Below are positions 1,797-57,574 of a stretch of DNA of 64,000 bases, piece by piece; positions within the stretch are counted from its first letter, which is position 1; each line of letters begins with the position of its first letter. The position numbers and the translations under genes were made by a program. The notes under the pieces are model-generated. The model was not told the origin of the DNA. It did not search any database and worked only from the letters and a program-made list of their open reading frames with translations. Origin of the DNA: Candidatus Melainabacteria bacterium (GTDB lineage: Bacteria > Cyanobacteriota > Vampirovibrionia > 2-02-FULL-35-15); assembly GCA_016201905.1 (NCBI GenBank), contig JACQBQ010000001.1, positions 3,405-67,404 on the forward strand. Reading direction: 5' to 3'.

Positions 1797-2767
1797 AATA
1801 TTCCGTCATATTAAGCTTATTTTTATTAATTCTTCCTACCTGGTTAACTAATCTTAGTAAGGATAAATTGATAGTATTTGCATCACTGTCTTATTATGGC
1901 TGTGATTTTGATGGAGATAAACTTACTGATCTTTCTCTTTGGGATCCAAAAACAAATACCTTGTACTATCAGTTATCAACTACTAAGCGTTCTTATCAAA
2001 AAAGATTTTTTGAAAGCGATATATCATTTGAACCTGTTTTTGCAGATTATGATGGTGATGGAAAAACTGATTTTGCTTTTTTTCAAAAGGATTCTGGTCA
2101 GTGGGTTGTAAGTTTAACTTCAAATCCTAACAGGCCTCAGAAAACATTTTTAGGATCAATAGGAGATATGCCTGTTCCAACTGACATAAAAGGTACCGGG
2201 AGTTATAAACCAGCAATTTGGAGACCAAATGCAAGTAGCTGGTTAATAACAGAGGTCACAAATGAAGGACAAGAAATACAGCGTAGAGTTTTAGAAGGAC
2301 AATATCAGGATTGTCCTTCCTCAGCAGATTATGATGGTGATGGAATATCTGATCTTTCAGTATGGAGACCTGACGATGGTTACTGGCATATTGTAAAATC
2401 ATCTGCTGACTTTGATTTTGGCAAAAGTGATCATACTAAACACGGGCAAGAATGGGATGTAATAGTGCCAAATGACTATGATGGAGATGGAAAATGTGAT
2501 CTTGTCTTCTGGAGACCAGAAAATCAGGTTTGGTACTTTTTATATTCGGGTACAAATGAACAAAATCAAATAAAATTTGGTTTTAAAGATGACATACCGC
2601 TTTCTGGTGATTTAGATGGTGACGGTATACCTGAACTCATTACCTGGAGTAAGGCAAAGAATTCATGGAATGTCCTGAATTTCAGAAAGCAAGAGTCTTT
2701 TTCATATAAGTGGACAGTTCCGAATGATTGTTTACCAGCCGTTTCAATATTACAGAAGTATGAGTAA
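1793..2767 (+). CDS. Secreted FG-GAP/VCBS-type repeat protein (Ca-binding beta-propeller repeats)
   Basis: Signal-peptide-like N-terminus. DYDGDG(K/I)xD motifs each followed by W/F recur 4-5 times (DYDGDGKTD, DYDGDGISD, DYDGDGKCD, DLDGDGIPE). TTG start overlaps the upstream stop by 4 nt. Confidence 0.6.
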   Translation: MKYSVILSLFLLILPTWLTNLSKDKLIVFASLSYYGCDFDGDKLTDLSLWDPKTNTLYYQLSTTKRSYQKRFFESDISFEPVFADYDGDGKTDFAFFQKDSGQWVVSLTSNPNRPQKTFLGSIGDMPVPTDIKGTGSYKPAIWRPNASSWLITEVTNEGQEIQRRVLEGQYQDCPSSADYDGDGISDLSVWRPDDGYWHIVKSSADFDFGKSDHTKHGQEWDVIVPNDYDGDGKCDLVFWRPENQVWYFLYSGTNEQNQIKFGFKDDIPLSGDLDGDGIPELITWSKAKNSWNVLNFRKQESFSYKWTVPNDCLPAVSILQKYE

Positions 2768-4691
2768 AAGGATTATATTTTTTTTTGCAATAATATGCAC
2801 CTTTTTTTTCTTTGGTTGTTCGAATTCAGATACTCCTTTTGGTTTTTTAAATCACCAGACACAAAATATAAATAACCTAATTGATTTTAATGGTGACAAA
2901 TGCTCTGAACTTGTTTTCTGGAATACTTCATCCATGTCTAAGTCTGATAAGTTTCTTGAGCTTTGTTTTTTTGAAACTTTGAACTTAAAAGAAAACAAAT
3001 ATTCAAAATTAAATCTAGGAGAAGTTGGTGATATTCCTTTTGTTGGATACTTTGATGAAGACTCAGTTGCAGATTATGGACTTTATAGAAGTAGTTCAGA
3101 AGGTTTTGGTAGCTGGATTATACAAAGTGGTGCAAATTCAAATCTAGTTAACATAAAGTTTGGAAAGTCTGGAGATATTCCTGTTCCAAATGATTATGAT
3201 GGAGATGAAAAATATGACATTGCAATTTATCATCCACTAGATAGTAGCTTTGAGGGAATTTTTAGCAGAAACCAGATTCCATTTCACTTCAAGCTTGGCA
3301 TAAATGGTGATATTCCTGTATCAAAGGACTATGACGGTGATGGTAAAGCTGACTTTACGACATACAGACCCAGAAACGGTGTCTGGACAATAAGATCATC
3401 GAGAGATGGAAGTGTTACAGAAAAAGAACTTGGCGGTCCATATTTTTTGCCTATACCTAGTGACTATGATGGTGATGGTAAGGCTGATTTATGTGCATGG
3501 AATAGTTTTAATAATTCATTAAAAGTAATATTAACTTCCTTTAAGGCACCATTATCAGGTGATATTTTAGAAAAGATTCAGAATGAATTAAATGGCAAAG
3601 ACTTTTTTCCTGTTCCTTTAGATTATGATGGTAATGGAGTTAGTGAGCTTGCTTTCTGGAGTAACTCATTAAAAATACTTTTAACATTTGACATAAGAGG
3701 GAATTTAAAACAAAAAACTTATTATTTCCCTAAAGTAACGAATTCGCTCCCCGTTAACAATTTCCTTTTAAGAAAACTAGTCTTAGAAAATATTAGTAGA
3801 ACTTCTGCTGTACTTTTTAAAGATGGTGAGATTATTCGTTATCCGCTTTCCGGGCTTAAAACTAAAAGCTTACACATATTTAAATGGAATAAAAAAGAAA
3901 AAGTTATACCGTTTGCTTCTGATTTTGATGGAGATTATGTTTTAGATTCGTGCTTGTGGTCAGTTAACACTGGAACATTTTTATGTAGTTCAAGTAGAGT
4001 TGGCTGGAAATTTGCTCTACCGCTTGGTCAGAAGATAGATGTGCCAGTAGTTGGCAATTTTAATAGCGATAATATTACTGACATAGGTGTTTATAGAAAT
4101 GCTGAAAGAAGTTTTTATTACCGATTTTTGGGGAAATCAGCACCGAAGGAAATCCAAACTTTTCAGTTAAGTGAAGATGCAGGTGTGTATGGTGTGCCAC
4201 AAATAGCTGATTATGATGGAGACAGAATAGATGACTTTGCGATTTTTAATCCTCAAAACAATATTTTTATAATTAAAAGATCATCTGATTTGCTGGAAGC
4301 GAAGATAAACCTAACTAATACCGGTGAATCTATCCCTGTAGTTGGGGATTTTGATGGTGATGGCAAAGCAGATCCTGCCATTATTAGTACTGACCAGCAC
4401 GATTCTAAATTTACTTATTATTCCAGTACATATGGAAAGTCATTTGATTTTCCTATTAGTGCATTTTATGGACTACCAATTGCTTCTGATATTGATCATG
4501 ACTTAAAATCCGATCTACTGTTTTTTGACAATAATAAAGGAAACTTAGTCATTGCTCTGTCTTCTCAAAATCAGGGAGGTAATAAAGAAAAACTCCTTGA
4601 TTATAAGTTTATAAAAGATGCCAGCCCAGTAAATTGTCCATGGCTATATAATATTATTTATGCAAAAACAAAAAATAAAAATAGTTCTTGA
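2760..4691 (+). CDS. FG-GAP repeat lipoprotein, a larger paralog of the preceding gene
   Basis: The N-terminus MSKRIIFFFAIICTFFFFGCS has a lipobox-like FGC. At least 8 DYDGDGKAD/DFDGDGKAD-type repeats follow. The ORF track opens at 2724; the Met at 2760 is the more likely start. Confidence 0.55.
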   Translation: MSKRIIFFFAIICTFFFFGCSNSDTPFGFLNHQTQNINNLIDFNGDKCSELVFWNTSSMSKSDKFLELCFFETLNLKENKYSKLNLGEVGDIPFVGYFDEDSVADYGLYRSSSEGFGSWIIQSGANSNLVNIKFGKSGDIPVPNDYDGDEKYDIAIYHPLDSSFEGIFSRNQIPFHFKLGINGDIPVSKDYDGDGKADFTTYRPRNGVWTIRSSRDGSVTEKELGGPYFLPIPSDYDGDGKADLCAWNSFNNSLKVILTSFKAPLSGDILEKIQNELNGKDFFPVPLDYDGNGVSELAFWSNSLKILLTFDIRGNLKQKTYYFPKVTNSLPVNNFLLRKLVLENISRTSAVLFKDGEIIRYPLSGLKTKSLHIFKWNKKEKVIPFASDFDGDYVLDSCLWSVNTGTFLCSSSRVGWKFALPLGQKIDVPVVGNFNSDNITDIGVYRNAERSFYYRFLGKSAPKEIQTFQLSEDAGVYGVPQIADYDGDRIDDFAIFNPQNNIFIIKRSSDLLEAKINLTNTGESIPVVGDFDGDGKADPAIISTDQHDSKFTYYSSTYGKSFDFPISAFYGLPIASDIDHDLKSDLLFFDNNKGNLVIALSSQNQGGNKEKLLDYKFIKDASPVNCPWLYNIIYAKTKNKNSS

Positions 4692-9000: not shown

Positions 9001-10365
9001 GGTGTATTTGTTAAGTATTTTGGTGATAAAGAAGATGTTATTAAAGATCCTACTTATCTAAATTATTGCTTTCCTGAAGAAGAATTCTTACCAAGTACAT
9101 CTCCTATTAAGGGGATATTTGCACGAGAAGGACTTTTAAAATTCATAGGATTGGGAAATATTGATAAAGGTAGAAAACATTTAAAGAATTTTCTTGTTAA
9201 ACTCCCACTTGGATTTAATAAAATGCTTGAGTGGTGTGGTGGATTGATGGCTCTGGGTGGCTTAGTCAGGCTTGGCAGTAAGCTAACTGGTGGTTTTGAA
9301 GAACCGATTTATAAAGCTGGCTACTGGTTATCAAATAGTATTAGAGCAGTTTCTGCACTTGCTGGTGGTTTACGTGGTCAGTTTAATGTTCAAAAATATC
9401 ATGATATTACGTTTGCTGAAATAATAAATATCTTCTCTGCTCTAAAACTTCCTAATGGATTCAAGCATCTTGGTATAGGTGTTGGAAACTTTCTTTTGTT
9501 TTTAGGCAGAGGCAGGCAAAGAGCACAGGCTCAGCAGATGGTAAACAGTCTTACTCCTAAAGAAGTTAAAACTGATAAACCAGAAGAAGGTGTTATTGAC
9601 CCAAGACCATTTGTAAGAGACATTACAAAATTTAGTAATGAGGATATGATCTTAAGTCTTAAAAATGCAGCAAGAAAAAATGCTCAACCTCCAATTTTAG
9701 GGGAAATTGTTGGAAACATGGCAAGTGCAATAATGACACCTGTAAAGATGATGAAAGATATAATTCAAAATCCTAAGCTAATCTTCCAGATGAAAAAGAG
9801 AGTATCTGAAAGATCAGGAAATATATATAGAACTGTACCAAGTGCTGGTCACTTGATGACTTTAGTCGGTGCTTTAAGTGGTATCGGAGCACTTATAGGA
9901 GGGACATTTGGAAGAATTGGTGAAGTAGCAGAAGATGGATTTAATAGACTAGGTAAGTATGCAATTTCATTTGCAAATTCAATACCAGCGCTTGGAATAA
10001 TTGCAAATGGGTTTGAGGTAGCTGCAAGTCCACAAGGATTACAAAAAACATATGGAAGTATTGATGGAAGTGATTCTACATATGATCCAAAAGGTGCCGG
10101 TTTAGGTCAGGTGCTAGCAGGAATAGGTTATGGTATTTTACCTTGGTTTGGCTTGCACAATAATTCAGTTGCTGCTTCTTATGATGTTGTAAATGGGTTG
10201 TACTTTGGATTACCTAATGCAGGTATTAGTGTTTCTGAAGAAGAGAAACATAATACAGAAAGTTTAGTTAGAAGTATTTTAATAGAAGGACAAGAATTGT
10301 ATACTGAAAATGAGTCTAGTTTAATGGCTTCTAAAAAATCAAAGCAAAAAGGTGCTGCTGATTAA
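6034..10365 (+). CDS. Very large (1443 aa) hypothetical protein with a coiled-coil segment, a HAD-like GDSPSDIGM motif and a C-terminal glycine-zipper hydrophobic region; candidate secreted effector or toxin
   Basis: Uninterrupted 4.3-kb ORF. A TTG start lies 8 nt after a perfect AGGAG. Coiled-coil stretch EIQQELNQLKASNQDQELNKKVEELEQKLKNKK. The C-terminal ~400 aa are rich in GxxxG/AxxxG (GALSGIGALIGGTFGRIG, VLAGIGYGILPWFG). Confidence 0.7.
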   Translation: MTSIRKSNLSSSNTIPIQVLRTEKSTPLVPEQAGKTQTISSDAKRSLLKSLWERTVDFVKSLFGIARPDGTLHQKFEERFISEIQNEPQDPKHSKNPRAVVSLKYAGAAIKYADENNTKIVPADKGIPRSSKLQFLADGPEQDYYYNCIINFIASSILDGYSIESHEDMDDTNTHKVEAYSTAALQPVSQIYELRQTIKALREEGAKIFINTARSLFRTRIFVRNKGLEGESTIVTLDDALNELGAFSTKEKLELSKEIGIAAFTGGIVHTPLEKTEWSPELLLMMDLLKFLGPEFIQECFIDPTIKHEFAQLEPKALFAGIHDLQRTTGKSYYPHSFNIVELKEKFVDNRNSNKSIEEGWKDFACAVKENIDAGAQRIPQLEHSIEEIQQELNQLKASNQDQELNKKVEELEQKLKNKKEEYFSYIRVPGSPLDPKTTYVNGWGKTVQCPDYYDFLCEVPKQSELKAMSKEERAQAFFELYTDGKAGAMCFHFYNSRQTPYQNAIPDFISMLRGHANGIKVDEGNEVLARDIFRRLNYTFKKDNPDVKAFVAKGKKIFNNGSPTCVQSYLMWRLLRHMKHTYNKEERDNSSILVFKNSTVRFSDGFLQEWKDFCKENKLNESASPFEFKNWLNKRLTKSNGIERELVEYIETIFPPDFFEQRNKFHLSEEYFYPDELFSRNNRDGNGNYSFISNSSVVDKTTPIRKSANGYGEFQPDQDKKNVLPSFRQCVENYIRPIAAGDSPSDIGMLVGSLERNGLAIVVSNKTTDRGLYNEAIKQRIKYVKEAKIMDDSFDYLAETCSRFGIYGLESVNGGYRKITSLSDTEHQDKKIYSKEEIIEDLKSHYKHRIARVESPAAKIRTMAEALRCLTGIDIDFDRAKFKKAKEIFKNNPDGIGLSKSDRDLFEAYRWAVVREKNRFVLSDDSTRFRAFFEYHYYNPNTEKKEIFIKRKSDGKLVNKDAFLFRKEELFTGDESELKRVLIKRNNQGVFVKYFGDKEDVIKDPTYLNYCFPEEEFLPSTSPIKGIFAREGLLKFIGLGNIDKGRKHLKNFLVKLPLGFNKMLEWCGGLMALGGLVRLGSKLTGGFEEPIYKAGYWLSNSIRAVSALAGGLRGQFNVQKYHDITFAEIINIFSALKLPNGFKHLGIGVGNFLLFLGRGRQRAQAQQMVNSLTPKEVKTDKPEEGVIDPRPFVRDITKFSNEDMILSLKNAARKNAQPPILGEIVGNMASAIMTPVKMMKDIIQNPKLIFQMKKRVSERSGNIYRTVPSAGHLMTLVGALSGIGALIGGTFGRIGEVAEDGFNRLGKYAISFANSIPALGIIANGFEVAASPQGLQKTYGSIDGSDSTYDPKGAGLGQVLAGIGYGILPWFGLHNNSVAASYDVVNGLYFGLPNAGISVSEEEKHNTESLVRSILIEGQELYTENESSLMASKKSKQKGAAD

Positions 10366-12303: not shown

Positions 12304-12510
12304 TTATAAAAGTCCTACACCTTTATCAAAATACTCTTTCATTAATTTTTTGATTTTTTCTCTCTGTTCTTCAGAACGTGCACGCTCAAGACACCATACA
12401 AAAGCTGTCCTTGGACTTACATTTCTTGTGGCACAAAACTTATCTATCTCAAGCTCACCGCTTAAGACTAAATCCAAATCTGATCCCATGTCTCTTCGTC
12501 TTGAGGTCAT
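12304..12510 (-). CDS. Small hypothetical protein (68 aa)
   Basis: The ATG is preceded by GAGG and by the conserved hairpin motif. Confidence 0.4.
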   Translation of the reverse strand: MTSRRRDMGSDLDLVLSGELEIDKFCATRNVSPRTAFVWCLERARSEEQREKIKKLMKEYFDKGVGLL

Positions 12511-12524
12511 AATTTTTTTACCTC

Positions 12525-12603
12525 GGAAAAATCTCGCTTTGAAACAAGATTTTTCCTTTTCCTTCCCGGCGCTCAGAATATTGCTTACCGCAACATTCTT
12601 TGC
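12525..12603 (-). promoter_or_regulatory. Conserved two-hairpin element, copy A, ending 14 nt before the start codon of the 68-aa ORF
   Basis: Minus-strand sequence GAATGTTGC-GGTAA-GCAATATTC ... GGAAAAATCT-TGTTTCAAAGCG-AGATTTTTCC, then GAGG and ATG. Confidence 0.5.
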
Positions 12604-12655
12604 TTATCTTATGCTGCTTTTTGAGTTAATCTCCTCCTCAAGCTTTTTTTATTAA

Positions 12656-12877
12656 TTATGCTGTTTTCTGAGTTAGTTTTCTTTTTAAACTCTCTTTATT
12701 AATGAGTTGTAGTGATTCATACAGTTCAAGAGTCCATTTCCCACGATTTTTCCTGGCGATTTTACGCATCTTGTCACGAATGCTTAATATATTTTTATCT
12801 GACCATTTTGAAAAATCGCCAAATTTTTTCTTACTGCCTTTATACAGTTTAATGGCCTTTTTAACTACATCTGCCAT
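12656..12877 (-). CDS. Small, very basic hypothetical protein (73 aa)
   Basis: ORF with an AT-rich promoter-like upstream region. No recognisable domain. Confidence 0.35.
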   Translation of the reverse strand: MADVVKKAIKLYKGSKKKFGDFSKWSDKNILSIRDKMRKIARKNRGKWTLELYESLQLINKESLKRKLTQKTA

Positions 12878-13700: not shown

Positions 13701-13703
13701 ACA

Positions 13704-13799
13704 TGTCATTGCGAGCCCGACTCAGGCGGGCGAAGCAATCCCAAATGTTTTCATATTACAATCTGGACTGCTTCATTGCTTATGCTCCTTGCAGTGACA
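13704..13799. repeat. GC-rich palindromic mini-element, copy 1 (termini TGTCATTGCGAGC...GCAGTGACA), in the convergent intergenic region gatD / M16 peptidase
   Basis: About 60% GC in a ~30% GC background. Shares the CGAAGCAATC module and terminal inverted repeats with the other copies. Confidence 0.7.
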
Positions 13800-13801
13800 A
13801 A

Positions 13802-15076
13802 CTACCCCAGGCTAAACTTTTTAGGCATTTCATTTCTTGGTCCAACTGCTGTAAGTGTGTAATATTTAGAATTAAATATTACATTTGCTAGTTTAATAAT
13901 TCTTTCATTGGTAATTAATTGTACCGAACTATTTATTTCATCTGGTGTTAAAAATCTCTTGTAGTATAAGTCATATAATGCATTTCTCGATGCTCTAACC
14001 ATTGTTGATTCGAGTTCAAGAAATAAGCTGGTTTTTAGTTGCATCTTTGCTCTTTCAAGTTCATCAGGCTTTAGCCCATCTTTTTTAACTGCATTTAACT
14101 CTTTTAAAATAAGCTCTATAACATGGCTTGATTCTTTGGCAGTAGTTCCTGCATAAACCCCAAATAGTCCACCTAATTTATTCGTGTGATAGTAAGAAGA
14201 AATTACATAAGCAAGGCCTCGCTTTTCCCTCACTTCTTGAAAGAGCCTTGAACTCATGCCTCCACCCATTGCAATGTCAATTACAGCCAGCGTATATCTT
14301 TCTTCATCGTAGACTGAAACACCTTTTGTAGCAAAGCTCAGATGGGTTTGTTCAATATCTTTGTCTTTAATGAATATATCTGGAGTTATTATTAATGGCG
14401 GTGCATCTTTCTTTTTGTTTTTGTTATTTATGTTAGAAGTGAGTTTTTCGGTTTTTTGTATAATTGCAGCCAGGTCATATTTACCAGCCAGTGAAATTAT
14501 CATATTATCAGGGGTGTAAAGATCACTTAAAAAATTGAATACTGATTTTTTCTTAAGGTTTGTAATTGATTCTATAGTTCCGGTAATTGGTTTTCCAAGA
14601 GGATGTCCTTTCCATACAACTTCATATAAGAGATCCTGAACAAGATCTTCAGGAGTATCTTCATACATTTTAATTTCTTCTAGGATTACTTGTTTTTCAA
14701 GGTCAAAATCGTTGTCCTGCATTCTTGAATTAAATAACATATCTAAGAAAAGCTCCAGTGCAACTAAAACATGTTCACTTAAGATCCGCGTATGGTAACA
14801 GGTATGTTCTCTGTCAGTAAATGCATTCAGGTTAGCTCCAACATTTTCACTTTGTTCGGCAATCTCTAAAGCAGTTCTTGTTTTTGTACCCTTAAAAATT
14901 ATATGTTCAATAAAGTGTGAAACGCCATTATTACTTACTTCTTCATCAATCGATCCTACGTTAATCCATATACTCAATGTGCATGATAATGCACCTGGAA
15001 TTTCTTCTGAAATTATTCTTAAGCCATTTTCTAAAGTTATTATTTTAGGTGGCTTGTAATTTGCTGAAGTTAACAT
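13802..15076 (-). CDS. M16 family (insulinase/pitrilysin-like) zinc peptidase
   Basis: Inverted zinc motif HFIEHIIFKGT (HxxEH), followed by NAFTDREHTCYH and a C-terminal inactive M16 domain. Confidence 0.85.
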   Translation of the reverse strand: MLTSANYKPPKIITLENGLRIISEEIPGALSCTLSIWINVGSIDEEVSNNGVSHFIEHIIFKGTKTRTALEIAEQSENVGANLNAFTDREHTCYHTRILSEHVLVALELFLDMLFNSRMQDNDFDLEKQVILEEIKMYEDTPEDLVQDLLYEVVWKGHPLGKPITGTIESITNLKKKSVFNFLSDLYTPDNMIISLAGKYDLAAIIQKTEKLTSNINNKNKKKDAPPLIITPDIFIKDKDIEQTHLSFATKGVSVYDEERYTLAVIDIAMGGGMSSRLFQEVREKRGLAYVISSYYHTNKLGGLFGVYAGTTAKESSHVIELILKELNAVKKDGLKPDELERAKMQLKTSLFLELESTMVRASRNALYDLYYKRFLTPDEINSSVQLITNERIIKLANVIFNSKYYTLTAVGPRNEMPKKFSLG

Positions 15077-23891: not shown

Positions 23892-23954
23892 TTTGTAATA
23901 TCTTATTCTTTAATTGAAGACATATACTATTCTATAACATAGCTCGTATGCGTG

Positions 23955-24036
23955 CTGAGCGAAGAATATTGCGGTGAGCAATATTCTAAGCGTCGGGAAG
24001 GAAAAGGAAAAATCTTGTTCAAAGCGAGATTTTTCC
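23955..24036 (+). promoter_or_regulatory. Conserved two-hairpin element, copy B, in the 5' region of the Na+/Ca2+ exchanger gene
   Basis: GAATATTGC-GGTGA-GCAATATTC ... GGAAAAATCT-TGTTCAAAGCG-AGATTTTTCC; about 90% identical to copy A over 75 nt. One stem position is A-U in one copy and G.U in the other. Confidence 0.5.
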
Positions 24037-24047
24037 GCTTAAAAAAC

Positions 24048-25115
24048 GTGGAAACTTTATTTTATTTTATTATTTCACTTTTTGCAATTTTAATTTCCTG
24101 CATTATTTTTAGCAATTCTGTTGAATGGCTTGGTGCAAGGCTAAATTTATCCCATGGCATCACTGGAAGCATTCTGGCAGCCGTAGGCACGGCTTTACCT
24201 GAAACTGTAGTCCCATTAGTGGCAATTTTTTGGGGTATAAATAAAGAAAATTTGGTTAAGGTTTTAACGGGTCATGCAGATTCCCTTAACTCTGTTAACC
24301 AAATAAGCATGGGGGCAATAATCGGAGCTCCATTTATGCTTAGCACCGTAGCATTTTTTTTAATAGGCTTTAGCAGCTGGACTTATTTTAAAACAGGCAG
24401 AAGAAAATCAAAAATAATAAATATGGATAAAACGGTTCTGGAGAGAGATCTTACATTTTTTATTGTTTCTTTTTCACTTGCATTTTTAGCTATTTTTTTA
24501 AGCCATTTATTTCATGTGATCTTTGCAGTTTTAATGCTAATTCTTTATGCAGTTTATCTTTATTTAACAATAAAAGAAGAATCAAATAATGAGTATAAAG
24601 GGGAAGAGCTTGAAGAAAACTTAGATCCTTTTTTACTCACAAAAATTATTCCTGCATTAAAACCAACAATGTTTTTAATCTGGTTACAATTAATTGTTTC
24701 TTTGGCTTTACTTATATTTAGTGCACACTATTTTGTGGAAGTGATAAAAGAGGTTTCAAGCCAATTGTTGCTTCCTGCATTTGTTATAAGTCTTTTACTT
24801 ACACCAATTGCTACTGAGCTTCCTGAAAAGTTTAATAGCTGGATGTGGATTAGACAAAAAAAAGATACTCTTGCAGTTGGCAATATATCTGGTGCTCTTG
24901 TCTTCCAGAGCACTTTTCCGGTTACAATTGGACTTTTATTTACAAGCTGGCAGGTACAATCATCAATTTCATATTTAATTTTTATCTTCTGTTTAATATG
25001 TGCAAGCATAGTTTTATTTGCACTAAAGAAAAATAAACTTAGCTATAAAACGTTTCTGTTCTGTGGGGTATTTTATTTAATTTATTTAACTTTAGTCTTT
25101 TGTAGGTGTAGATGA
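24048..25115 (+). CDS. CaCA-family Na+/Ca2+ (cation/Ca2+) exchanger
   Basis: Alpha-repeat motifs GITGSILAAVGTALPE and GNISGALVFQ; about 10 TM helices. The ORF track starts at 23952 but that N-terminus translates a conserved hairpin element. An in-frame GTG at 24048 is a plausible true start; the start remains uncertain. Confidence 0.65.
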   Translation: METLFYFIISLFAILISCIIFSNSVEWLGARLNLSHGITGSILAAVGTALPETVVPLVAIFWGINKENLVKVLTGHADSLNSVNQISMGAIIGAPFMLSTVAFFLIGFSSWTYFKTGRRKSKIINMDKTVLERDLTFFIVSFSLAFLAIFLSHLFHVIFAVLMLILYAVYLYLTIKEESNNEYKGEELEENLDPFLLTKIIPALKPTMFLIWLQLIVSLALLIFSAHYFVEVIKEVSSQLLLPAFVISLLLTPIATELPEKFNSWMWIRQKKDTLAVGNISGALVFQSTFPVTIGLLFTSWQVQSSISYLIFIFCLICASIVLFALKKNKLSYKTFLFCGVFYLIYLTLVFCRCR

Positions 25116-39555: not shown

Positions 39556-40641
39556 TTAGTTCTCAGCAACTCTAAGAGCAATAGTTTTTTGTTCGATTTT
39601 CTTTTTAATTTTTGGCAGCATGTTTATTGCTTCTTCTTCGCCTACTTTAATTGCTTTTGCAAGACTTACTTTATCAAGGTTTAATATGCCCACTTCTTTT
39701 AAGTCCGGGCTTATAACAATATCTGCTTTATCCAGAGCTGCCTCTGACTGTGCCCTTAATCCAAGACCAATAACACGGATAATAATGCCTTCAAAAGATC
39801 TAAAGTTTTCTGATTTTATTTCTTCAAGCTTTCTATCGACATCCACAGCAATAACAATATCTGCTCCCATTTTTTTTGCCTCATCAACAGGAATATTTTT
39901 TAAAATCCCGCCATCGACAAGTAGCTGGTTGTTAATCGGAATTGGCTGACGCAGTGTAGGTATTGAAGTGCTTGCCTGAACTGCAAGGCCAACATCCCCG
40001 GATTTTATTACCACTGGCAAGCCACTAATTAAATCAACTGCAATAATGTGTAATGGAATACTTATGTTAATTGTTCCATCTTTTTTTGAAATCAGTTGGT
40101 TTACAAAATGATGTAATCTATGGTCATTATATAAGCCAGCATAAAAAGGTTTTCCTACAATAGTCCGAAATCCTCTATTTAGATAGAGGAAAAATGCTCT
40201 AAAGATAGAAAAATCTGTTTTATATACTTTTGTTATTGCACCTGTTAAAACCTGCTCTTCAATTTCATCTGGACTTAGTCCTCCTGAATATAGTGCTGCA
40301 ATTAAAGCTCCAGCACTAGTACCGACAAGGTAATCAACAGGAATATTTTCTCTTTCAAGAACTCTTAAAACACCAATTTGTGCAGCACCACGTGCGCCAC
40401 CACCGCCCAACGCTAATCCAATCTTTGGTCTTATTACAGAACTATTTTTTGCAAGGGCAGATGAGGTAGTAAAAATGAGTAGAAAGCAAAGAAAAAGAGA
40501 AAAGTTCTTTACGTCATTGCGAGGAGTGAAAAGACGTTGCATGCAACGTCTCCACGGCAATCTCCCAAACGTTAATGAGATTGCTTCGTCGTCCGCCTGG
40601 GCGGACTCCTCGCAATGACGTGTCACATTTTTTTTCTTCAC
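39556..40641 (-). CDS. Patatin-like phospholipase
   Basis: GGGARGAAQIG, GTSAGAL (catalytic Ser) and VDGGILKN (catalytic Asp). The first ~35 codons, including both candidate start ATGs at 40641 and 40542, come from a GC-rich repeat element. Confidence 0.8.
   Translation of the reverse strand: MKKKNVTRHCEESAQADDEAISLTFGRLPWRRCMQRLFTPRNDVKNFSLFLCFLLIFTTSSALAKNSSVIRPKIGLALGGGGARGAAQIGVLRVLERENIPVDYLVGTSAGALIAALYSGGLSPDEIEEQVLTGAITKVYKTDFSIFRAFFLYLNRGFRTIVGKPFYAGLYNDHRLHHFVNQLISKKDGTINISIPLHIIAVDLISGLPVVIKSGDVGLAVQASTSIPTLRQPIPINNQLLVDGGILKNIPVDEAKKMGADIVIAVDVDRKLEEIKSENFRSFEGIIIRVIGLGLRAQSEAALDKADIVISPDLKEVGILNLDKVSLAKAIKVGEEEAINMLPKIKKKIEQKTIALRVAEN
40513..40619. repeat. GC-rich palindromic mini-element, copy 2 (GTCATTGCGAGGAG...CTCCTCGCAATGAC), forming the 5' coding end of the patatin gene
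   Basis: Perfect 14-nt terminal inverted repeats. Internal palindromes GACGTTGCATGCAACGTC and GTCCGCCTGGGCGGAC. Confidence 0.8.
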
Positions 40642-48129: not shown

Positions 48130-50280
48130 CTACATAGTTGCACTAGCAACCAATTCACTAATATCTTTTACAGTTGGTGGTTCCCCGCTTTTATCAAGTG
48201 TTCTTGCAGTTTCAAGCATAATAGTACAGAAAGGACATGCGCTTGCAGCTGTCTTTGCACCTGATTCTTTAATTTCATTTAACCTCATAACGTTAATTTG
48301 TTTTCCAGGTGCTTCATACCAGAGCTGTGCTCCACCACCACCACAGCATGTCCCTTTTTCACGAGAGTTTTCCATTTCAATATATTTTAAGCCGGGGATT
48401 TTATTTAAAATGTTTCTTGGAGCATCATATTGACCATTATGACGACCAAGATAACAAGAATCGTGATAAGTTATTTCTTCACTGATTTCCTTTGTCATTG
48501 AGAGCTTTCCTTCTTTTATTAATTCCCATAAGATTTCAGTATGATGAAATACGCTGACATCTTTTAAGCCAAAGTCTGGATATTCATTTTTAAATGTATT
48601 AAAACAGTGGGGACAATGAGTAATAATTTTTTTAACATTTTTGCCTTTAAATATTTCAATATTTTCAATTGCCAGTTCCTGAAAAAGCCCTTCATCGCCA
48701 GCTCTGCGAGCTGTATCACCTGTGCATTTTTCTTTTTTGCCTAAAATTGCAAACTTTACATTTGCTTTTTTAAGTAAACTTACCATTGTCTTTGCAATAT
48801 TTTGATTTCTTGAATCATAAGCTCCAGCACAACCAACCCAGTATAAATATTCAAAGTCACTGGTAGTTTCAATGTTTGGAACATTCAGACCTTCTGTCCA
48901 TTTTTCACGATCTTCTGGTGGCTGCCCCCATGGATTTGAACGTGAACGAATATTTTTTAGGGTATTAAGCAGATTATTTGGTGCTTTATTTTCTGAAATT
49001 AATGACCTTCTTAAATCAATGATTTTTGTTAATTGATCAATTCCAACAGGGCAGGTCTCTACACAAGCTCGACAGGAAGTGCATGACCATAGGGTTTCAG
49101 GAGTAAGTAGATCAGATAAAGTTAGCGTTGTAGTGTCATTGCGAGCCGAAGGCAAAGCAATCTCGCTAACTGTTTCACGTTGTTGAGATTGCTTCGCTCG
49201 CCTCGTCGGAGACGAGTCGGAGCGGGTCGCTGCACTCCTCGCAATGACGCTATTCGGTTTCTCTTCCTGCTTTCCACCTTTAAACCCATGATTGAGAATA
49301 GGTTCCTTATTCATGATTTGCTTCAAATCTAAAATTATCCATTTAGGTGAAAGTGGTTTTTCTGAATTTGTTGCAGGACATACTTCATGACATTTTCCAC
49401 AGGCTGTACATGTGTCCAGATCCATTAAATCTTTCCATGTAAAATCTTCTATCTTTGAAACTGTTTGTGCAAAATCATCTGGTGGATTTTCCATTGCCAT
49501 GATCTCTACTAAGTTAAACGGTGTACTTAAAGCCCCTTTTGGTTTTAAGTCGCTAAAAAATATATTTATTGGTGCTATAAACATATGACTAAACTTTGTA
49601 AATGGAATTAGAGCAATAAATGAAAATGTTTGTATTGAATGAAGCCACCATAAAATGAGATGTAGTGTCTTTTGTGTTTCATAAGAAAATCCTTGAACGC
49701 TATTTGCTATAAGTGCTCCAAGAAATGCATAAGGTTCAATCTGATCTGTTGCTGATTGTCTTAAACCTTCGATTAAAAATCCAAGAACTACAAATAATGC
49801 CAAGTAGACTAATTGAAACCAATCGTTCTGAAAATTATCTAGTCTTTTTGGTTTTACAACATACCTAATAAATGCAAAAAATCCAAGACCAACGAGCATT
49901 AACACGCCAGATAAGTCCATTAAAAAAGAATAGGACTTGTAAAACATGCCATGAAAAAAATATTCAGGCATGCGATCCTGAACTGTAAGTATGTCAGTCC
50001 CTATCCACAAAACAAAAAATCCATAAAAAACTAATATATGTGCAAGGATTGGAAGCTTATCCTTTCCCCAGCCTTTATATAAAAAACTTCTTACAAACAT
50101 GTTTTGAATGCGCTTGCTGAAGTCAGTAAGGTTATTTTTTGGTTTGCCTCTTGCCCAGCTTTTAATTTTTAAATAAAACCCAGAGATAAAAAATATTGCT
50201 GAAATAAAAAATAAAGAATAGAAAATTTCTTTGTAATGAGGCACATCGTGAATATTCCACCATAGACCGCGTGTTTCCAT
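48130..50280 (-). CDS. HdrDE/DsrMK-like membrane-bound Fe-S oxidoreductase: N-terminal NarI-like di-heme b membrane domain fused to two [4Fe-4S] ferredoxin motifs and two CCG cysteine-rich domains
   Basis: 5-6 TM helices with paired His (ILAHILVFYGFF, HLILWWLHSIQT). CTACGKCHEVCP and CTSCRACVETCP motifs. CCG-type clusters (CCGGGG, CPFC, HCPHC). Carries an in-frame 114-nt repeat insertion. Confidence 0.7.
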   Translation of the reverse strand: METRGLWWNIHDVPHYKEIFYSLFFISAIFFISGFYLKIKSWARGKPKNNLTDFSKRIQNMFVRSFLYKGWGKDKLPILAHILVFYGFFVLWIGTDILTVQDRMPEYFFHGMFYKSYSFLMDLSGVLMLVGLGFFAFIRYVVKPKRLDNFQNDWFQLVYLALFVVLGFLIEGLRQSATDQIEPYAFLGALIANSVQGFSYETQKTLHLILWWLHSIQTFSFIALIPFTKFSHMFIAPINIFFSDLKPKGALSTPFNLVEIMAMENPPDDFAQTVSKIEDFTWKDLMDLDTCTACGKCHEVCPATNSEKPLSPKWIILDLKQIMNKEPILNHGFKGGKQEEKPNSVIARSAATRSDSSPTRRAKQSQQRETVSEIALPSARNDTTTLTLSDLLTPETLWSCTSCRACVETCPVGIDQLTKIIDLRRSLISENKAPNNLLNTLKNIRSRSNPWGQPPEDREKWTEGLNVPNIETTSDFEYLYWVGCAGAYDSRNQNIAKTMVSLLKKANVKFAILGKKEKCTGDTARRAGDEGLFQELAIENIEIFKGKNVKKIITHCPHCFNTFKNEYPDFGLKDVSVFHHTEILWELIKEGKLSMTKEISEEITYHDSCYLGRHNGQYDAPRNILNKIPGLKYIEMENSREKGTCCGGGGAQLWYEAPGKQINVMRLNEIKESGAKTAASACPFCTIMLETARTLDKSGEPPTVKDISELVASATM
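49135..49248. repeat. GC-rich palindromic mini-element, copy 3, inserted in-frame (114 nt = 38 codons) in the HdrDE-like gene
   Basis: Termini GTCATTGCGAGC...CCTCGCAATGAC. Internal CTCGTCGGAGACGAG and GCAAAGCAATCTC/GAGATTGCTTCGC. Confidence 0.8.
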
Positions 50281-56660: not shown

Positions 56661-56667
56661 TTTTTGT

Positions 56668-56700
56668 CAAAAAAATCCTGCTTTGAACAAGATTTTTTCT
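56668..56700 (-). promoter_or_regulatory. Third, partial copy (second hairpin only) ending 8 nt before the start codon of the 139-aa membrane protein
   Basis: Minus strand AGAAAAAATCTTG-TTCAAAG-CAGGATTTTTTT. The loop TTGTTCAAAGC is conserved; the stem is kept by a U.G pair. Confidence 0.4.
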
Positions 56701-57109
56701 TTTCCCTTTACTTATTTTTTTTGTCTACTAACATTAATTTATTATCACGTAAAATATTCATAACAACAAGTAAAATGTTAAAAGATAAAGTTGATGAGAT
56801 AATTTGCTAACAATTGTTGTCGGTATATGTCTTTTTTTTAGAAGATATTTACCTCTTAATCAACTTCCGGCTCCCTTCAAAACGGTACGTAATAAGGTTT
56901 ATAAACCATTCTGAATATAAAATTTTTTTAATCTTTAGCCTTATTATGTGACTTAAGAGCTATTTTCTTATTAATTCTCTCGAAGATTAAATTTTTCTTA
57001 TTTGATTTACTTGTTTAAAGTCTTTTAAATTACCTCTAAAAAAGCTATTATTGTGTCATAAGTAATTTTTACTTATTAAAGATAAAGTTAAGAACAGTTA
57101 AAGGAAAGA

Positions 57110-57423: not shown

Positions 57424-57574
57424 TGTCATTGCCCGGCTCCGCCTCGTCGGAGACGAGGCGAGCGAGGAGCGAAGCGACGAAGCAATCCCGATCGCAATTA
57501 AATCAAGACTTAACTAATAACCATTTTCATAATATTCTTAGTCTGGGACTGCTTTGCCTTTAGCTCGCAGTGAC
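57424..57574. repeat. Composite ~150-nt copy of the GC-rich element (TGTCATTGCCCGG...AGCTCGCAGTGACA) in the convergent region between the 102-aa ORF and pilC
   Basis: Termini match copy 1. It shares CCTCGTCGGAGACGAGG with copy 3 and GAAGCAATCCC with copy 1. The AT-rich middle suggests a two-module arrangement. Confidence 0.6.

What the first reader, a model, noticed from the sequence alone, without database searches (positions are those of the whole stretch)
23955..24036. Conserved two-hairpin element immediately upstream of unrelated genes (candidate cis-regulatory RNA or operator)
Copy B (plus strand) and copy A (minus strand 12603-12525) are about 90% identical over about 75 nt. Hairpin 1 is GAAT(A/G)TTGC-GGT(G/A)A-GCAATATTC; the A/G difference leaves an A-U pair in one copy and a G.U pair in the other. 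Hairpin 2 is GGAAAAATCT-TG(T)TTCAAAGCG-AGATTTTTCC. In copy A hairpin 2 ends 14 nt before the ATG, with GAGG in between. In copy B the element lies where the ORF track places the N-terminus of a CaCA Na+/Ca2+ exchanger, so the real start is probably downstream, e.g. GTG 24048. The element is AT-rich, has no terminator-like U-tail and matches no riboswitch class I can recall. It could be a translational control hairpin, a protein-binding site, or a regulon operator, since the arms form a 10-bp inverted repeat with an 11-nt spacer.
Basis: seen in the sequence. Interest (0 to 1): 0.65.

Follow-up and report, generated by a model that had tools for sequence, protein, structure and literature searches.

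The report
Young dispersed repeat abutting start codons
The two-hairpin element is real, but it is a recently spread, roughly 100-nt repeat that has landed directly in front of the start codons of unrelated genes in one uncultured Melainabacteria lineage; it is not a conserved riboswitch or operator.

Summary
Copies B (23955-24047, +) and A (12511-12605, -) are 93% identical. A third copy, C, keeps only hairpin 2 (56661-56716, -). Two more copies lie in metagenome contigs. No Rfam family matches.

All five copies point the same way as the gene downstream. In each, hairpin 2 ends 8-14 nt before the start codon.

Related Melainabacteria keep the same gene order at all three window loci and lack the element:
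- The CaCA orthologues have a short leader with a normal Shine-Dalgarno sequence.
- The orf73/orf68 pair abuts as TAAATG. The window has 145 extra nt exactly between that stop and that start.
- The 139-aa gene has a leader about 100 nt shorter.

So this is a young, lineage-restricted dispersed repeat inserted at start codons. It takes the place of the native ribosome-binding region. Folding favours the mRNA sense strand, through G.U pairs. Copy C kept all 14 pairs of hairpin 2 through five substitutions.

My best reading is a co-transcribed, portable leader or translation-initiation module. The closest analogue is the mycobacterial MIRU. How it moves and what it does remain inferred. GTG 24048 is confirmed as the CaCA start.

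The parts
23940..24047 (+). Copy B, the whole stretch present in the window but missing from orthologous Ctp-CaCA spacers. It lies between the conserved CTATTCTATAAC box and the start codon. The conserved core is 23955-24047.
   Evidence: relatives L007 and L008 have 14 nt with AGGAGG or AAGGA here. Spacer lengths are 61-102 nt in relatives against 156 nt in the window, and 67 nt on the P0003 contig. The covariance model scores this copy at 110.3 bits.
23963..23987 (+). Copy B hairpin 1: AGAATATTGC-GGTGA-GCAATATTCT
   Evidence: -11.7 kcal/mol.
23988..24005 (+). Copy B purine-rich, unpaired linker (AAGCGTCGGGAAGGAAAA) carrying GGA/AAGGA motifs.
24006..24036 (+). Copy B hairpin 2: a 14-bp stem (GGAAAAATCTTGTT / AGCGAGATTTTTCC) with loop CAA.
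   Evidence: -14.8 kcal/mol on the sense strand against -8.8 on the antisense strand.
24037..24047 (+). Copy B A-rich tail (GCTTAAAAAAC) that replaces the Shine-Dalgarno region of the orthologues.
24048..25115 (+). CaCA (Na+/Ca2+ exchanger family) gene with its true start at GTG 24048.
   Evidence: P0001 is 355 aa and 100% identical.
23927..23938 (+). CTATTCTATAAC box, conserved in relatives upstream of CaCA. It is probably part of the native promoter. It is not part of the repeat but marks the repeat's 5' limit.
12511..12655 (-). Copy A, the 145 nt found in the window exactly between the orf73 stop (TAA 12656-12658) and the orf68 ATG (12510). The conserved core is 12511-12605. The 5' 50 nt include a 17/20 duplicate of the end of orf73.
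   Evidence: relative L104 has TAAATG with no spacer. The covariance model scores this copy at 105.9 bits.
12575..12599 (-). Copy A hairpin 1 (AGAATGTTGC-GGTAA-GCAATATTCT), with one G.U pair.
   Evidence: -11.7 kcal/mol sense against -6.3 antisense.
12525..12556 (-). Copy A hairpin 2, 14 bp with loop TCAA.
12304..12510 (-). orf68, the small conserved gene downstream of copy A.
   Evidence: full-length homologues exist, and P0218 is 79% identical with the same start.
56661..56716 (-). Copy C, an older, partial copy made of the purine tract, hairpin 2 and the A-rich tail. It lies directly before ATG 56660 of a 139-aa membrane-protein gene that precedes rpsA (ribosomal protein S1).
   Evidence: 47.7 bits. 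Relatives L015 and L017 lack it and have leaders about 100 nt shorter.
56669..56699 (-). Copy C hairpin 2 (GAAAAAATCTTGTT-CAA-AGCAGGATTTTTTT). It has five substitutions relative to A and B, and all 14 pairs are kept.

Best explanation
The element is a member of a young repeat family of about 95-110 nt, restricted to one lineage of uncultured groundwater Melainabacteria. It has been inserted directly 5' of the start codons of unrelated genes, always in the orientation of the gene.

It is transcribed as the last ~100 nt of the mRNA leader, or of an intercistronic spacer. On the sense strand it folds into hairpin 1, a purine-rich unpaired linker and hairpin 2 (14 bp). An unpaired A-rich tail of 8-14 nt then runs up to the start codon.

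The insertion displaces the native ribosome-binding region, or breaks a stop/start junction (TAAATG). The element must therefore itself provide a usable translation-initiation context. That context is an A-rich, Shine-Dalgarno-poor landing site next to a stable hairpin, with SD-like AAGGA motifs just upstream. In effect it works as a portable leader or initiation module, and it may also alter mRNA stability or translation rate.

Shown here: it is a repeat; it is an insertion; it abuts start codons; the folding is strand-specific; copy C has conserved hairpin 2. Inferred: it is co-transcribed; it supports or modulates translation; it is or was mobile. The mechanism of spread is unknown.
For: - Repeat family: the covariance model finds A, B and C in the window (110, 106 and 48 bits; the next unrelated hit scores at most 16 bits). 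It also finds L003 (111 bits), L002 (66) and L001 (58). Short-read contigs L001 and L002 break inside the element, as happens at repeats.
- Insertion at CaCA: spacers are 61-102 nt in relatives against 156 nt in the window. Relatives have AGGAGG or AAGGA 6-8 nt before the start and no element.
- Insertion at orf73/orf68: the relative has TAAATG, and the window has 145 extra nt exactly between stop and start.
- Insertion at the 139-aa gene: the shared ACAACAATTGTTA box lies about 50 nt from the ATG in L017 and about 150 nt from it in the window.
- No copy was found in about 250 kb of relatives' loci.
- Position: all five copies are co-oriented with the next gene, and hairpin 2 ends 8-14 nt before the start. 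Random placement within intergenic DNA gives about 2e-7 for five copies and about 1e-4 for the three window copies.
- Inside operons: the L003 copy fills the spacer between the transketolase N- and C-subunit genes. Copy A lies between orf73 and orf68.
- RNA-level structure: hairpin 2 is about 6 kcal/mol more stable on the sense strand than on the antisense strand in every copy, because of U.G pairs.
- Selection on hairpin 2: copy C has lost hairpin 1 but kept all 14 pairs of hairpin 2 through five substitutions. Random substitution gives this outcome with probability 0.002-0.015.
- Accessibility: the start codon and tail are unpaired in the predicted folds.
- Genome context: A-rich sequence just before the start codon is the norm in this genome, and only about 40% of genes have an SD-like motif.
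Against: - Only five copies are known, three of them in about 75 kb of this genome, so the genome-wide pattern is unknown.
- Covariation is not statistically supported: there is one double-sided change, and 94 of 500 shuffles do as well.
- There are no terminal inverted repeats and no consistent target-site duplication. No transposase, reverse transcriptase or other mobilising gene was identified, so mobility is inferred only from filled versus empty sites.
- The 5' boundary is fuzzy. The copy A insert carries an unexplained 50-nt 5' part that includes a duplicate of the end of orf73.
- There are no expression data. Transcription, translation support and any regulatory effect are all untested.
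- The position bias could come from selection alone: only insertions that keep the gene translatable survive.
Confidence: 0.5

Rival explanations
1. Post-transcriptional regulon element. The conserved leader is the binding site of a trans-acting RNA-binding protein or small RNA (sRNA), for example a CsrA-like protein recognising the GGA motifs in the linker, or a protein recognising the invariant top of hairpin 2. On this view the repeat has been kept because it puts the genes under common translational control.
For: - Sequence conservation extends to the unpaired parts. The linker GGGAAGGAAAAGG and the apical segment UCUUGUUCAAAGC are invariant or nearly so.
- Copy C appears to have retained hairpin 2 under selection.
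- The position right at the ribosome-binding region is where translational repressors act.
Against: - The downstream genes have no functional link: a CaCA antiporter, a transketolase subunit, two tiny proteins, and a membrane protein upstream of rpsA (ribosomal protein S1).
- The element is absent from orthologous genes in relatives.
- 90-93% identity is equally explained by recent spread.
- No candidate binding protein was looked for or found.
Confidence: 0.15
2. Upstream-ORF (uORF) coupling of the MIRU kind. The TTG inside the 5' arm of hairpin 2 is preceded by AAGGA at 6 nt and starts a 7-16-codon ORF. That ORF ends close to, or overlaps, the main start codon, so it would deliver ribosomes to the downstream gene by termination-reinitiation.
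For: - All five copies have the TTG.
- Four of the five have AAGGA 6 nt upstream of it.
- The short ORF stops 6-7 nt before the main start in A and C, or 13-16 nt after its first base in L002 and L003.
- MIRUs are reported to insert at start codons with an internal ORF coupled to the gene (PMC12548453).
Against: - The stop position and the peptide are not conserved. A 1-nt insertion in copy A changes the frame, and in copy B the ORF runs in frame into CaCA.
- In copy C the compensatory G-to-A change destroys the AAGGA and keeps the stem.
- Both the TTG and its SD-like motif are buried in a stem of -15 kcal/mol.
Confidence: 0.1
3. Purely selfish or neutral repeat with no RNA-level role. The hairpins are DNA-level features recognised by a transposase, for example single-strand hairpins used by HUH/Y1 enzymes of the IS200/IS605 or REP-associated tyrosine transposase (RAYT) type. 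The position next to start codons would then reflect target preference for A-rich DNA plus purifying selection.
For: - There is one hairpin near each end, no terminal inverted repeats and no clear target-site duplication. That is the layout of IS200/IS605-derived miniature elements.
- Possible A-run direct repeats flank copies A and C.
- G.T pairs are tolerated in single-stranded DNA hairpins.
Against: - Orientation follows the gene, not one replication strand: the copies run -, +, - within 45 kb.
- The bases 5' of the element differ between copies (GCT, GAT, TAT), so there is no shared target tetranucleotide.
- Copy C lost hairpin 1 but kept hairpin 2 through pair-preserving changes, which is unexpected for a dead transposon end.
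- No transposase gene was seen in the loci whose Pfam content was listed.
Confidence: 0.15
4. Ligand-sensing riboswitch or gene-specific cis-regulatory RNA, for example sensing Ca2+ or Na+ for the CaCA gene.
For: - The element lies in the 5' leader and has a stable, strand-specific fold.
- One of the downstream genes is an ion transporter.
Against: - No Rfam family matches.
- The element is absent upstream of CaCA orthologues at 77-82% identity.
- The downstream genes are unrelated.
- There is no expression platform: no terminator, and neither the SD nor the start codon is sequestered.
- Near-identity of the copies, rather than a conserved core with covarying stems, is not the riboswitch pattern.
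Confidence: 0.03
5. DNA operator: the 10-bp inverted repeat with an 11-nt spacer binds a dimeric transcription factor.
For: The outer arms, GGAAAAATCT and AGATTTTTCC, are perfectly symmetric in A, B and L003.
Against: - The complementarity continues through the supposed spacer as U.G pairs, so the structure is a 14-bp RNA-type stem.
- Copy C keeps pairing only through G.U pairs and so loses the DNA symmetry.
- Copies A and L003 lie between co-oriented ORFs that abut in relatives. They are not at promoters.
Confidence: 0.04

Closest known systems
MIRU (mycobacterial interspersed repetitive units; Supply et al. 1997, as summarised in PMC12548453)
   Same: - They are short (about 50-100 nt) dispersed repeats found in intercistronic spacers.
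- They are reported to insert at start codons in a way that preserves expression of the gene behind them.
- Here copy A lies exactly between a stop and a start that abut in a relative, and L003 lies between two transketolase subunit genes.
   Different: - MIRUs carry an ORF that overlaps the downstream start by 4 nt, and they often form tandem arrays.
- Here the internal TTG ORF ends at variable positions and the copies are single.
- This element is defined by two hairpins plus an A-rich tail.
- There is no sequence similarity, and the phylum is different.
Co-transcribed miniature repeats that alter mRNA fate: Correia/NEMIS (Neisseria) and ERIC/YPAL (enterobacteria, Yersinia), reviewed in PMC2229807
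   Same: - They are about 100-170 nt and dispersed.
- Filled and empty sites are seen between relatives.
- They are transcribed with neighbouring genes.
- Their stable RNA stem-loops influence processing and stability.
   Different: - Those elements have terminal inverted repeats and TA target duplications, and fold end-to-end into one long hairpin.
- They occur in both orientations and mostly not at start codons.
- This element has no terminal inverted repeats, has two independent hairpins, and has a single orientation relative to the gene.
CIR (Caulobacter/Brucella intergenic repeat), PMC2229807
   Same: It lacks terminal inverted repeats, and its 5' and 3' sections fold independently into two stem-loops joined by a linker.
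   Different: CIR exposes a GANTC methylation site and is not reported at start codons. There is no sequence similarity.
Hairpin-containing or split ribosome-binding sites and SD-like 5' stabilisers (phage T4 genes 38 and 25; B. subtilis cryIIIA STAB-SD). This comparison rests on my own knowledge and is not tested here.
   Same: An SD-like purine tract is separated from the start codon by a stable hairpin. Alternatively, an SD-like tract in a leader acts on mRNA stability rather than on initiation.
   Different: Those are single-gene features, not a dispersed repeat. With hairpin 2 folded, AAGGA still lies about 15 nt or more from the start codon, which is longer than the functional spacing in the T4 cases.

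Membership tests
Any Rfam family (riboswitches, cis-regulatory RNAs, sRNAs) | The sequence reaches the family's gathering score against its covariance model. | tested here: not met
   There are 0 matches in the whole window at gathering thresholds. In E-value mode, 301-nt scans around copies A and B return only hits 22-181 bits below gathering, with E values of 0.4-9.
Riboswitch / gene-specific cis-regulatory leader | The element is conserved upstream of orthologous genes in related species. | tested here: not met
   It is absent upstream of CaCA in L004, L007 and L008 and on the P0003 contig. It is absent upstream of the 139-aa gene in L015 and L017 and upstream of orf68 in L104.
Riboswitch / gene-specific cis-regulatory leader | An expression platform is present: an intrinsic terminator, or sequestration of the SD or start codon. 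| tested here: not met
   No terminator-like site was found. The start codon and tail are unpaired in the minimum-free-energy and centroid folds.
Riboswitch / structured RNA | The helices are supported by covariation. | tested here: inconclusive
   98% of cells are paired, but there is only one double-sided change among five sequences, and 94 of 500 shuffles do as well. Copy C's five pair-preserving substitutions are suggestive, with probability 0.002-0.015 under random substitution.
MITE (miniature inverted-repeat transposable element) | Multiple dispersed copies, with filled and empty sites between relatives. | tested here: met
   There are five loci. Empty orthologous sites were found for A, B and C.
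MITE (miniature inverted-repeat transposable element) | Terminal inverted repeats. | tested here: not met
   By inspection of the aligned copies, the 5' end (RAGCRAAGAAT) and the 3' end (GATTTTTCCG plus the A-rich tail) are not inverted copies of each other. The only resemblance is the 9/11 likeness between the 5' arms of the two hairpins, read by eye from the copy sequences printed; it was not scored and is recorded in the notebook.
MITE (miniature inverted-repeat transposable element) | A target-site duplication of fixed length. | tested here: inconclusive
   Possible A-run direct repeats flank copy A (TAAAAAAA) and copy C (GACAAAAAA). None is seen for B or L003, and A-runs are common before start codons in this genome.
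REP / REPIN | A short G+C-rich imperfect palindrome, typically 3' of genes, with a REP-associated tyrosine transposase (RAYT) gene in the genome. | tested here: not met
   The element has 37-40% G+C with A-U-rich stems, and it always lies 5' of a gene. Presence of a RAYT gene was not tested, because the whole genome is not available.
MIRU-like start-codon repeats | The repeat lies in intercistronic spacers or at start codons. | tested here: met
   Copy A lies between the TAA of orf73 and the ATG of orf68. L003 lies between the transketolase N- and C-subunit genes. In all five copies hairpin 2 ends 8-14 nt from the start codon.
MIRU-like start-codon repeats | An internal ORF overlaps the downstream start with a fixed (-4) spacing, and the repeat forms tandem arrays. 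| tested here: not met
   The internal TTG ORF ends at -7, -6, +13 or +16, or runs on in frame. All copies are single.
IS200/IS605-type miniature elements (PATE) | Subterminal hairpins, no terminal inverted repeats or target-site duplication, a conserved target oligonucleotide at the left end, and strand bias linked to replication. | tested here: inconclusive
   The hairpin layout fits. However, the left flanks differ (GCT, GAT, TAT) and orientation follows the genes (-, +, - within 45 kb). Presence of TnpA was not tested.
Transcription-factor operator | DNA dyad symmetry is maintained, and the site lies at a promoter. | tested here: not met
   Copy C keeps only RNA-type pairing (G.U), and the antisense or DNA symmetry is lost. 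Copies A and L003 lie inside operons.

The most novel reading that the evidence does not exclude
The element is an active 'leader cassette' that specifically targets the position immediately 5' of start codons and brings its own Shine-Dalgarno-independent initiation signal (hairpin plus A-rich tail). It might spread by an RNA-mediated, retroposition-like route. The hints for that route are the A-rich 3' tail, a copy that lacks the 5' half, and variable flanking direct repeats in A-runs. If true, it would be a new kind of bacterial mobile element that rewires translation initiation rather than transcription.
Probability: 0.1. Interest if true: 0.7.

Novelty: new member of a known kind. Interest (0 to 1): 0.4.

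Why it matters
This shows that a striking 'conserved structured leader upstream of unrelated genes' can be a recently spread repeat rather than a regulon. That is a useful caution for motif-based riboswitch discovery in metagenome-assembled genomes.

The element has its own interest. It lands exactly at start codons, replaces a canonical Shine-Dalgarno sequence, or splits a coupled TAAATG gene pair, and the genes persist. It therefore looks like a natural, portable, SD-poor translation-initiation leader.

If that were confirmed, it would offer a compact test case for how hairpin-plus-A-rich leaders recruit ribosomes in the Cyanobacteria/Melainabacteria lineage. It would also be a second example, after MIRUs, of repeats adapted to insert at start codons.

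It also corrects the annotation: CaCA starts at GTG 24048.

Tried and rejected
- Rfam: the whole window at gathering thresholds, and both copies in E-value mode, gave nothing meaningful.
- Core pattern AAAATCTTGTT(N0-1)CAAAGCNRGATTTT: 0 hits in viral contigs, 0 in GTDB genome contigs and 2 in metagenome contigs. A looser 16-mer gave 85 loci in viral contigs, all chance: none passes the covariance model.
- No blastn match in the phage or plasmid collections.
- Searching the protein database with the element's three-frame translation, to catch gene calls that run through copies, found no candidates.
- Extending the genome with Logan contigs added about 11 kb and no further copies.
- A weak model hit in relatives (L017 9325-9397, 20 bits) is an unrelated hairpin at a gene's 3' end.
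- An intrinsic terminator on the opposite strand (hairpin 2 followed by TTTTCCTTCC) was considered and rejected. No gene ends there for B or C, and the antisense hairpin is weak.
- A DGR template/variable-repeat pair, an integron attC site and a CRISPR repeat were considered and rejected on layout. The mismatches are not adenine-specific, the copies are not at the 3' ends of cassettes, and there is no array.
- An internal sigma-70-type promoter was not found on the element's strand.

Full report
**What is there.** The window has 33.8% G+C. It belongs to an NCBI metagenome-assembled genome named Candidatus Melainabacteria bacterium (P0001 and P0121 are 100% identical to window proteins).

Copy B (+, 23955-24047) and copy A (-, 12511-12605) are 93.5% identical over 77 nt. 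Each copy has four parts:
- Hairpin 1: 10 bp with a 5-nt loop.
- An 18-nt purine-rich linker (..CGGGAAGGAAAA) carrying GGA/AAGGA motifs.
- An A-rich tail of 8-14 nt that runs up to the start codon.

A third copy, C (-, 56661-56716), keeps only the purine tract, hairpin 2 and the tail. It lies in front of ATG 56660 of a conserved 139-aa membrane-protein gene that precedes rpsA (ribosomal protein S1).

A covariance model built from the copies scores B at 110 bits, A at 106 and C at 48. Nothing else in the window scores above 19 bits with the filters off, and the best of those low hits are the antisense strands of the copies themselves.

Rfam has no match. No terminator-like site, and no promoter on the element's own strand, was found.

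**Copies elsewhere.** An exact-pattern scan found nothing in viral contigs or in the GTDB species genomes. It found two metagenome contigs.
- L003 carries a full copy (111 bits) that fills the spacer between the transketolase N-terminal and C-terminal subunit genes.
- L002 begins inside a copy, which is followed by a 75-aa ORF.
- A Logan contig from the window's own organism (L001) ends inside copy A.

Contigs that break inside a sequence are typical of multi-copy repeats. In all five loci the element points the same way as the next gene, and hairpin 2 ends 8-14 nt before the start codon. For random placement within intergenic DNA this has a probability of about 1e-4 for the three window copies and about 2e-7 for all five.

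**It is an insertion, not an ancestral leader.** This is the decisive result.

(i) CaCA. Orthologues at 77-82% amino-acid identity keep the divergent Ctp (S41 peptidase) neighbour and a CTATTCTATAAC box. Their spacer is 61-102 nt, against 156 nt in the window. Between the box and the start they have about 14 nt with a canonical AGGAGG or AAGGA (L007, L008), or a short A-rich stretch (L004). There is no element. A contig without retrievable DNA has a 67-nt spacer.

(ii) orf73/orf68. In relative L104, whose orf68 is 79% identical, the orf73 stop directly abuts the orf68 start as TAAATG. The window has 145 extra nt exactly between that TAA and that ATG. The 3' 95 nt of the extra sequence are copy A.

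(iii) The 139-aa gene. L015 and L017 (71-74% identity) keep the gene order and an ACAACAATTGTTA box. In L017 the ATG is about 50 nt from the box; in the window it is about 150 nt. Neither relative has hairpin 2.

The model finds no copy in about 250 kb of relatives' DNA. Three independent insertions in one lineage is far more parsimonious than repeated precise losses in several lineages. It also explains the 90-93% identity of the copies, including their unpaired parts.

**RNA or DNA?** Hairpin 2 folds at -10 to -15 kcal/mol on the sense strand and only -4 to -9 on the antisense strand, in every copy. Hairpin 1 in A and L003 is -11.7 against -6.3. Both differences come from G.U pairs.

Copy C has lost any recognisable hairpin 1. 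Its hairpin 2 differs from the others by five substitutions, and all 14 pairs are kept (G-C to G.U, G-C to A-U, U-A to U.G, U.G to U-A). Random sets of five substitutions achieve this with probability 0.002-0.015 at realistic transition fractions. This points to a sense-strand, RNA-level constraint on hairpin 2 and against a double-stranded DNA operator.

Formal covariation over five sequences is not significant. The orientations of the window copies (-, +, -) follow the genes rather than one replication strand.

**How it probably works.** The insert ends at the start codon. It replaces a good Shine-Dalgarno sequence at CaCA, or splits a coupled stop/start junction at orf73/orf68 and very likely at the transketolase subunits. 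These genes are conserved and intact. The element must therefore supply a workable initiation region.

What it supplies is an unpaired A-rich tail. That matches the usual pre-start context in this genome, where only about 40% of genes have an SD-like motif. The tail lies next to a stable hairpin, with an unpaired purine tract carrying AAGGA motifs just 5' of that hairpin.

I therefore read the element as a portable leader or translation-initiation module that is co-transcribed with its gene. It may additionally affect mRNA stability or translation rate. Transcription, translation support and any regulation are inferences, not observations.

**Rival readings.**
- A TTG-initiated short ORF inside hairpin 2 exists in all copies and ends near the main start, which would allow MIRU-like coupling. 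But its frame, length and stop position vary, and copy C sacrificed its SD-like motif to keep the stem.
- A trans-acting RNA-binding regulator, perhaps recognising the GGA motifs, cannot be excluded.
- A ligand-sensing riboswitch and a DNA operator are both very unlikely.

**How it spreads is unresolved.** There are no terminal inverted repeats and no consistent target-site duplication.
- Possible A-run direct repeats flank copies A and C.
- The copy A insert has a puzzling 50-nt 5' part that repeats the last 20 nt of orf73 (17/20 matches).
- The 5' arms of hairpins 1 and 2 resemble each other (9/11 matches).
- No mobilising gene was seen, but only about 75 kb of this genome could be examined.
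- Gene spacings on two contigs without DNA, from one sample, hint that copy C is older than copy B.

**Comparison with what is known.**
- The closest functional analogue is the mycobacterial MIRU. It is described as a mobile short repeat that inserts at start codons so that expression of the target gene is preserved (PMC12548453). The present element shares the position but fails the defining internal-ORF overlap and the tandem arrays.
- It shares co-transcription and stable stem-loops with Correia, ERIC and YPAL elements, but lacks their terminal inverted repeats and single end-to-end hairpin (PMC2229807).
- It shares the layout of two arms plus a linker, without terminal inverted repeats, with Caulobacter CIR (PMC2229807).

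It is best filed as a new family within the known kind of small dispersed bacterial repeats. Its distinctive habit is that it abuts start codons.

**Verdict.** Interest is moderate. The element is ordinary in kind, but its precise placement at start codons and its replacement of the ribosome-binding site are unusual and testable.

Noticed in passing
window 40513-40575, 60644-60706, 49136-49253, 57433-57465: A second, unrelated, G+C-rich dispersed palindromic repeat family (GTCATTGCGAGGAG...GACGTTGCATGCAACGTCTCCAC.GCAATCTC). It has direct copies at 86% identity and inverted partial copies (families D4, I2, I8, I24).
   Followed up: no
window 13703-13891 (+): A 62-aa ORF beginning MSLRARLRRAKQSQ. 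From my own knowledge this resembles the translation of 'CATTGCGAG'-type repeats, so it may be a repeat rather than a gene. No repeat at these coordinates was reported by the repeat finder, so any link to the G+C-rich family is untested.
   Followed up: no
window 12609-12628 and 12656-12675 (minus strand): The 145-nt insert at copy A contains a 17/20 direct duplicate (TAACTCAAAAAGCAGCATAA) of the last 20 nt of the upstream gene orf73 (TAACTCAGAAAACAGCATAA). The duplicate is preceded by a strong SD-like GAGGAGG with no start codon after it. Its origin is unexplained.
   Followed up: partly
window 56809-56821 (minus strand); L017 about 9942-9954: A palindromic box, ACAACAATTGTTA, is conserved upstream of the 139-aa gene/rpsA (ribosomal protein S1) operon in the window and in L017; L015 has only a loosely similar stretch. 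It is a likely promoter or operator element of that operon.
   Followed up: no
window 23927-23938; L007 and L008 about 9973-9986: The box CTATTCTATAAC is conserved upstream of CaCA in the window and in relatives L007 and L008 (L004 differs). It is a probable -10 region or operator and marks the 5' limit of the copy B insertion.
   Followed up: partly
L001 3987-4045; L002 1-68: Short-read contigs from two different assemblies end or begin inside the element. This suggests it is multi-copy in those genomes and breaks assemblies.
   Followed up: partly
window 1900-4400 and 59303-59353: There are coding repeats with a DYDGDGK-type motif. The Pfam hits to FG-GAP on the syntenic proteins are faint. 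The repeats lie in two or three large adjacent ORFs and are ordinary protein repeats.
   Followed up: no
contigs of sample ERZ27297570 (no DNA retrievable): Gene spacing suggests that a 90%-identical relative may carry the copy C insertion: its spacer is 470 nt, against 449 nt in the window and 285-331 nt in more distant relatives. A contig from the same sample has no room for copy B, with a 67-nt spacer. Copy C may therefore predate copies A and B.
   Followed up: partly
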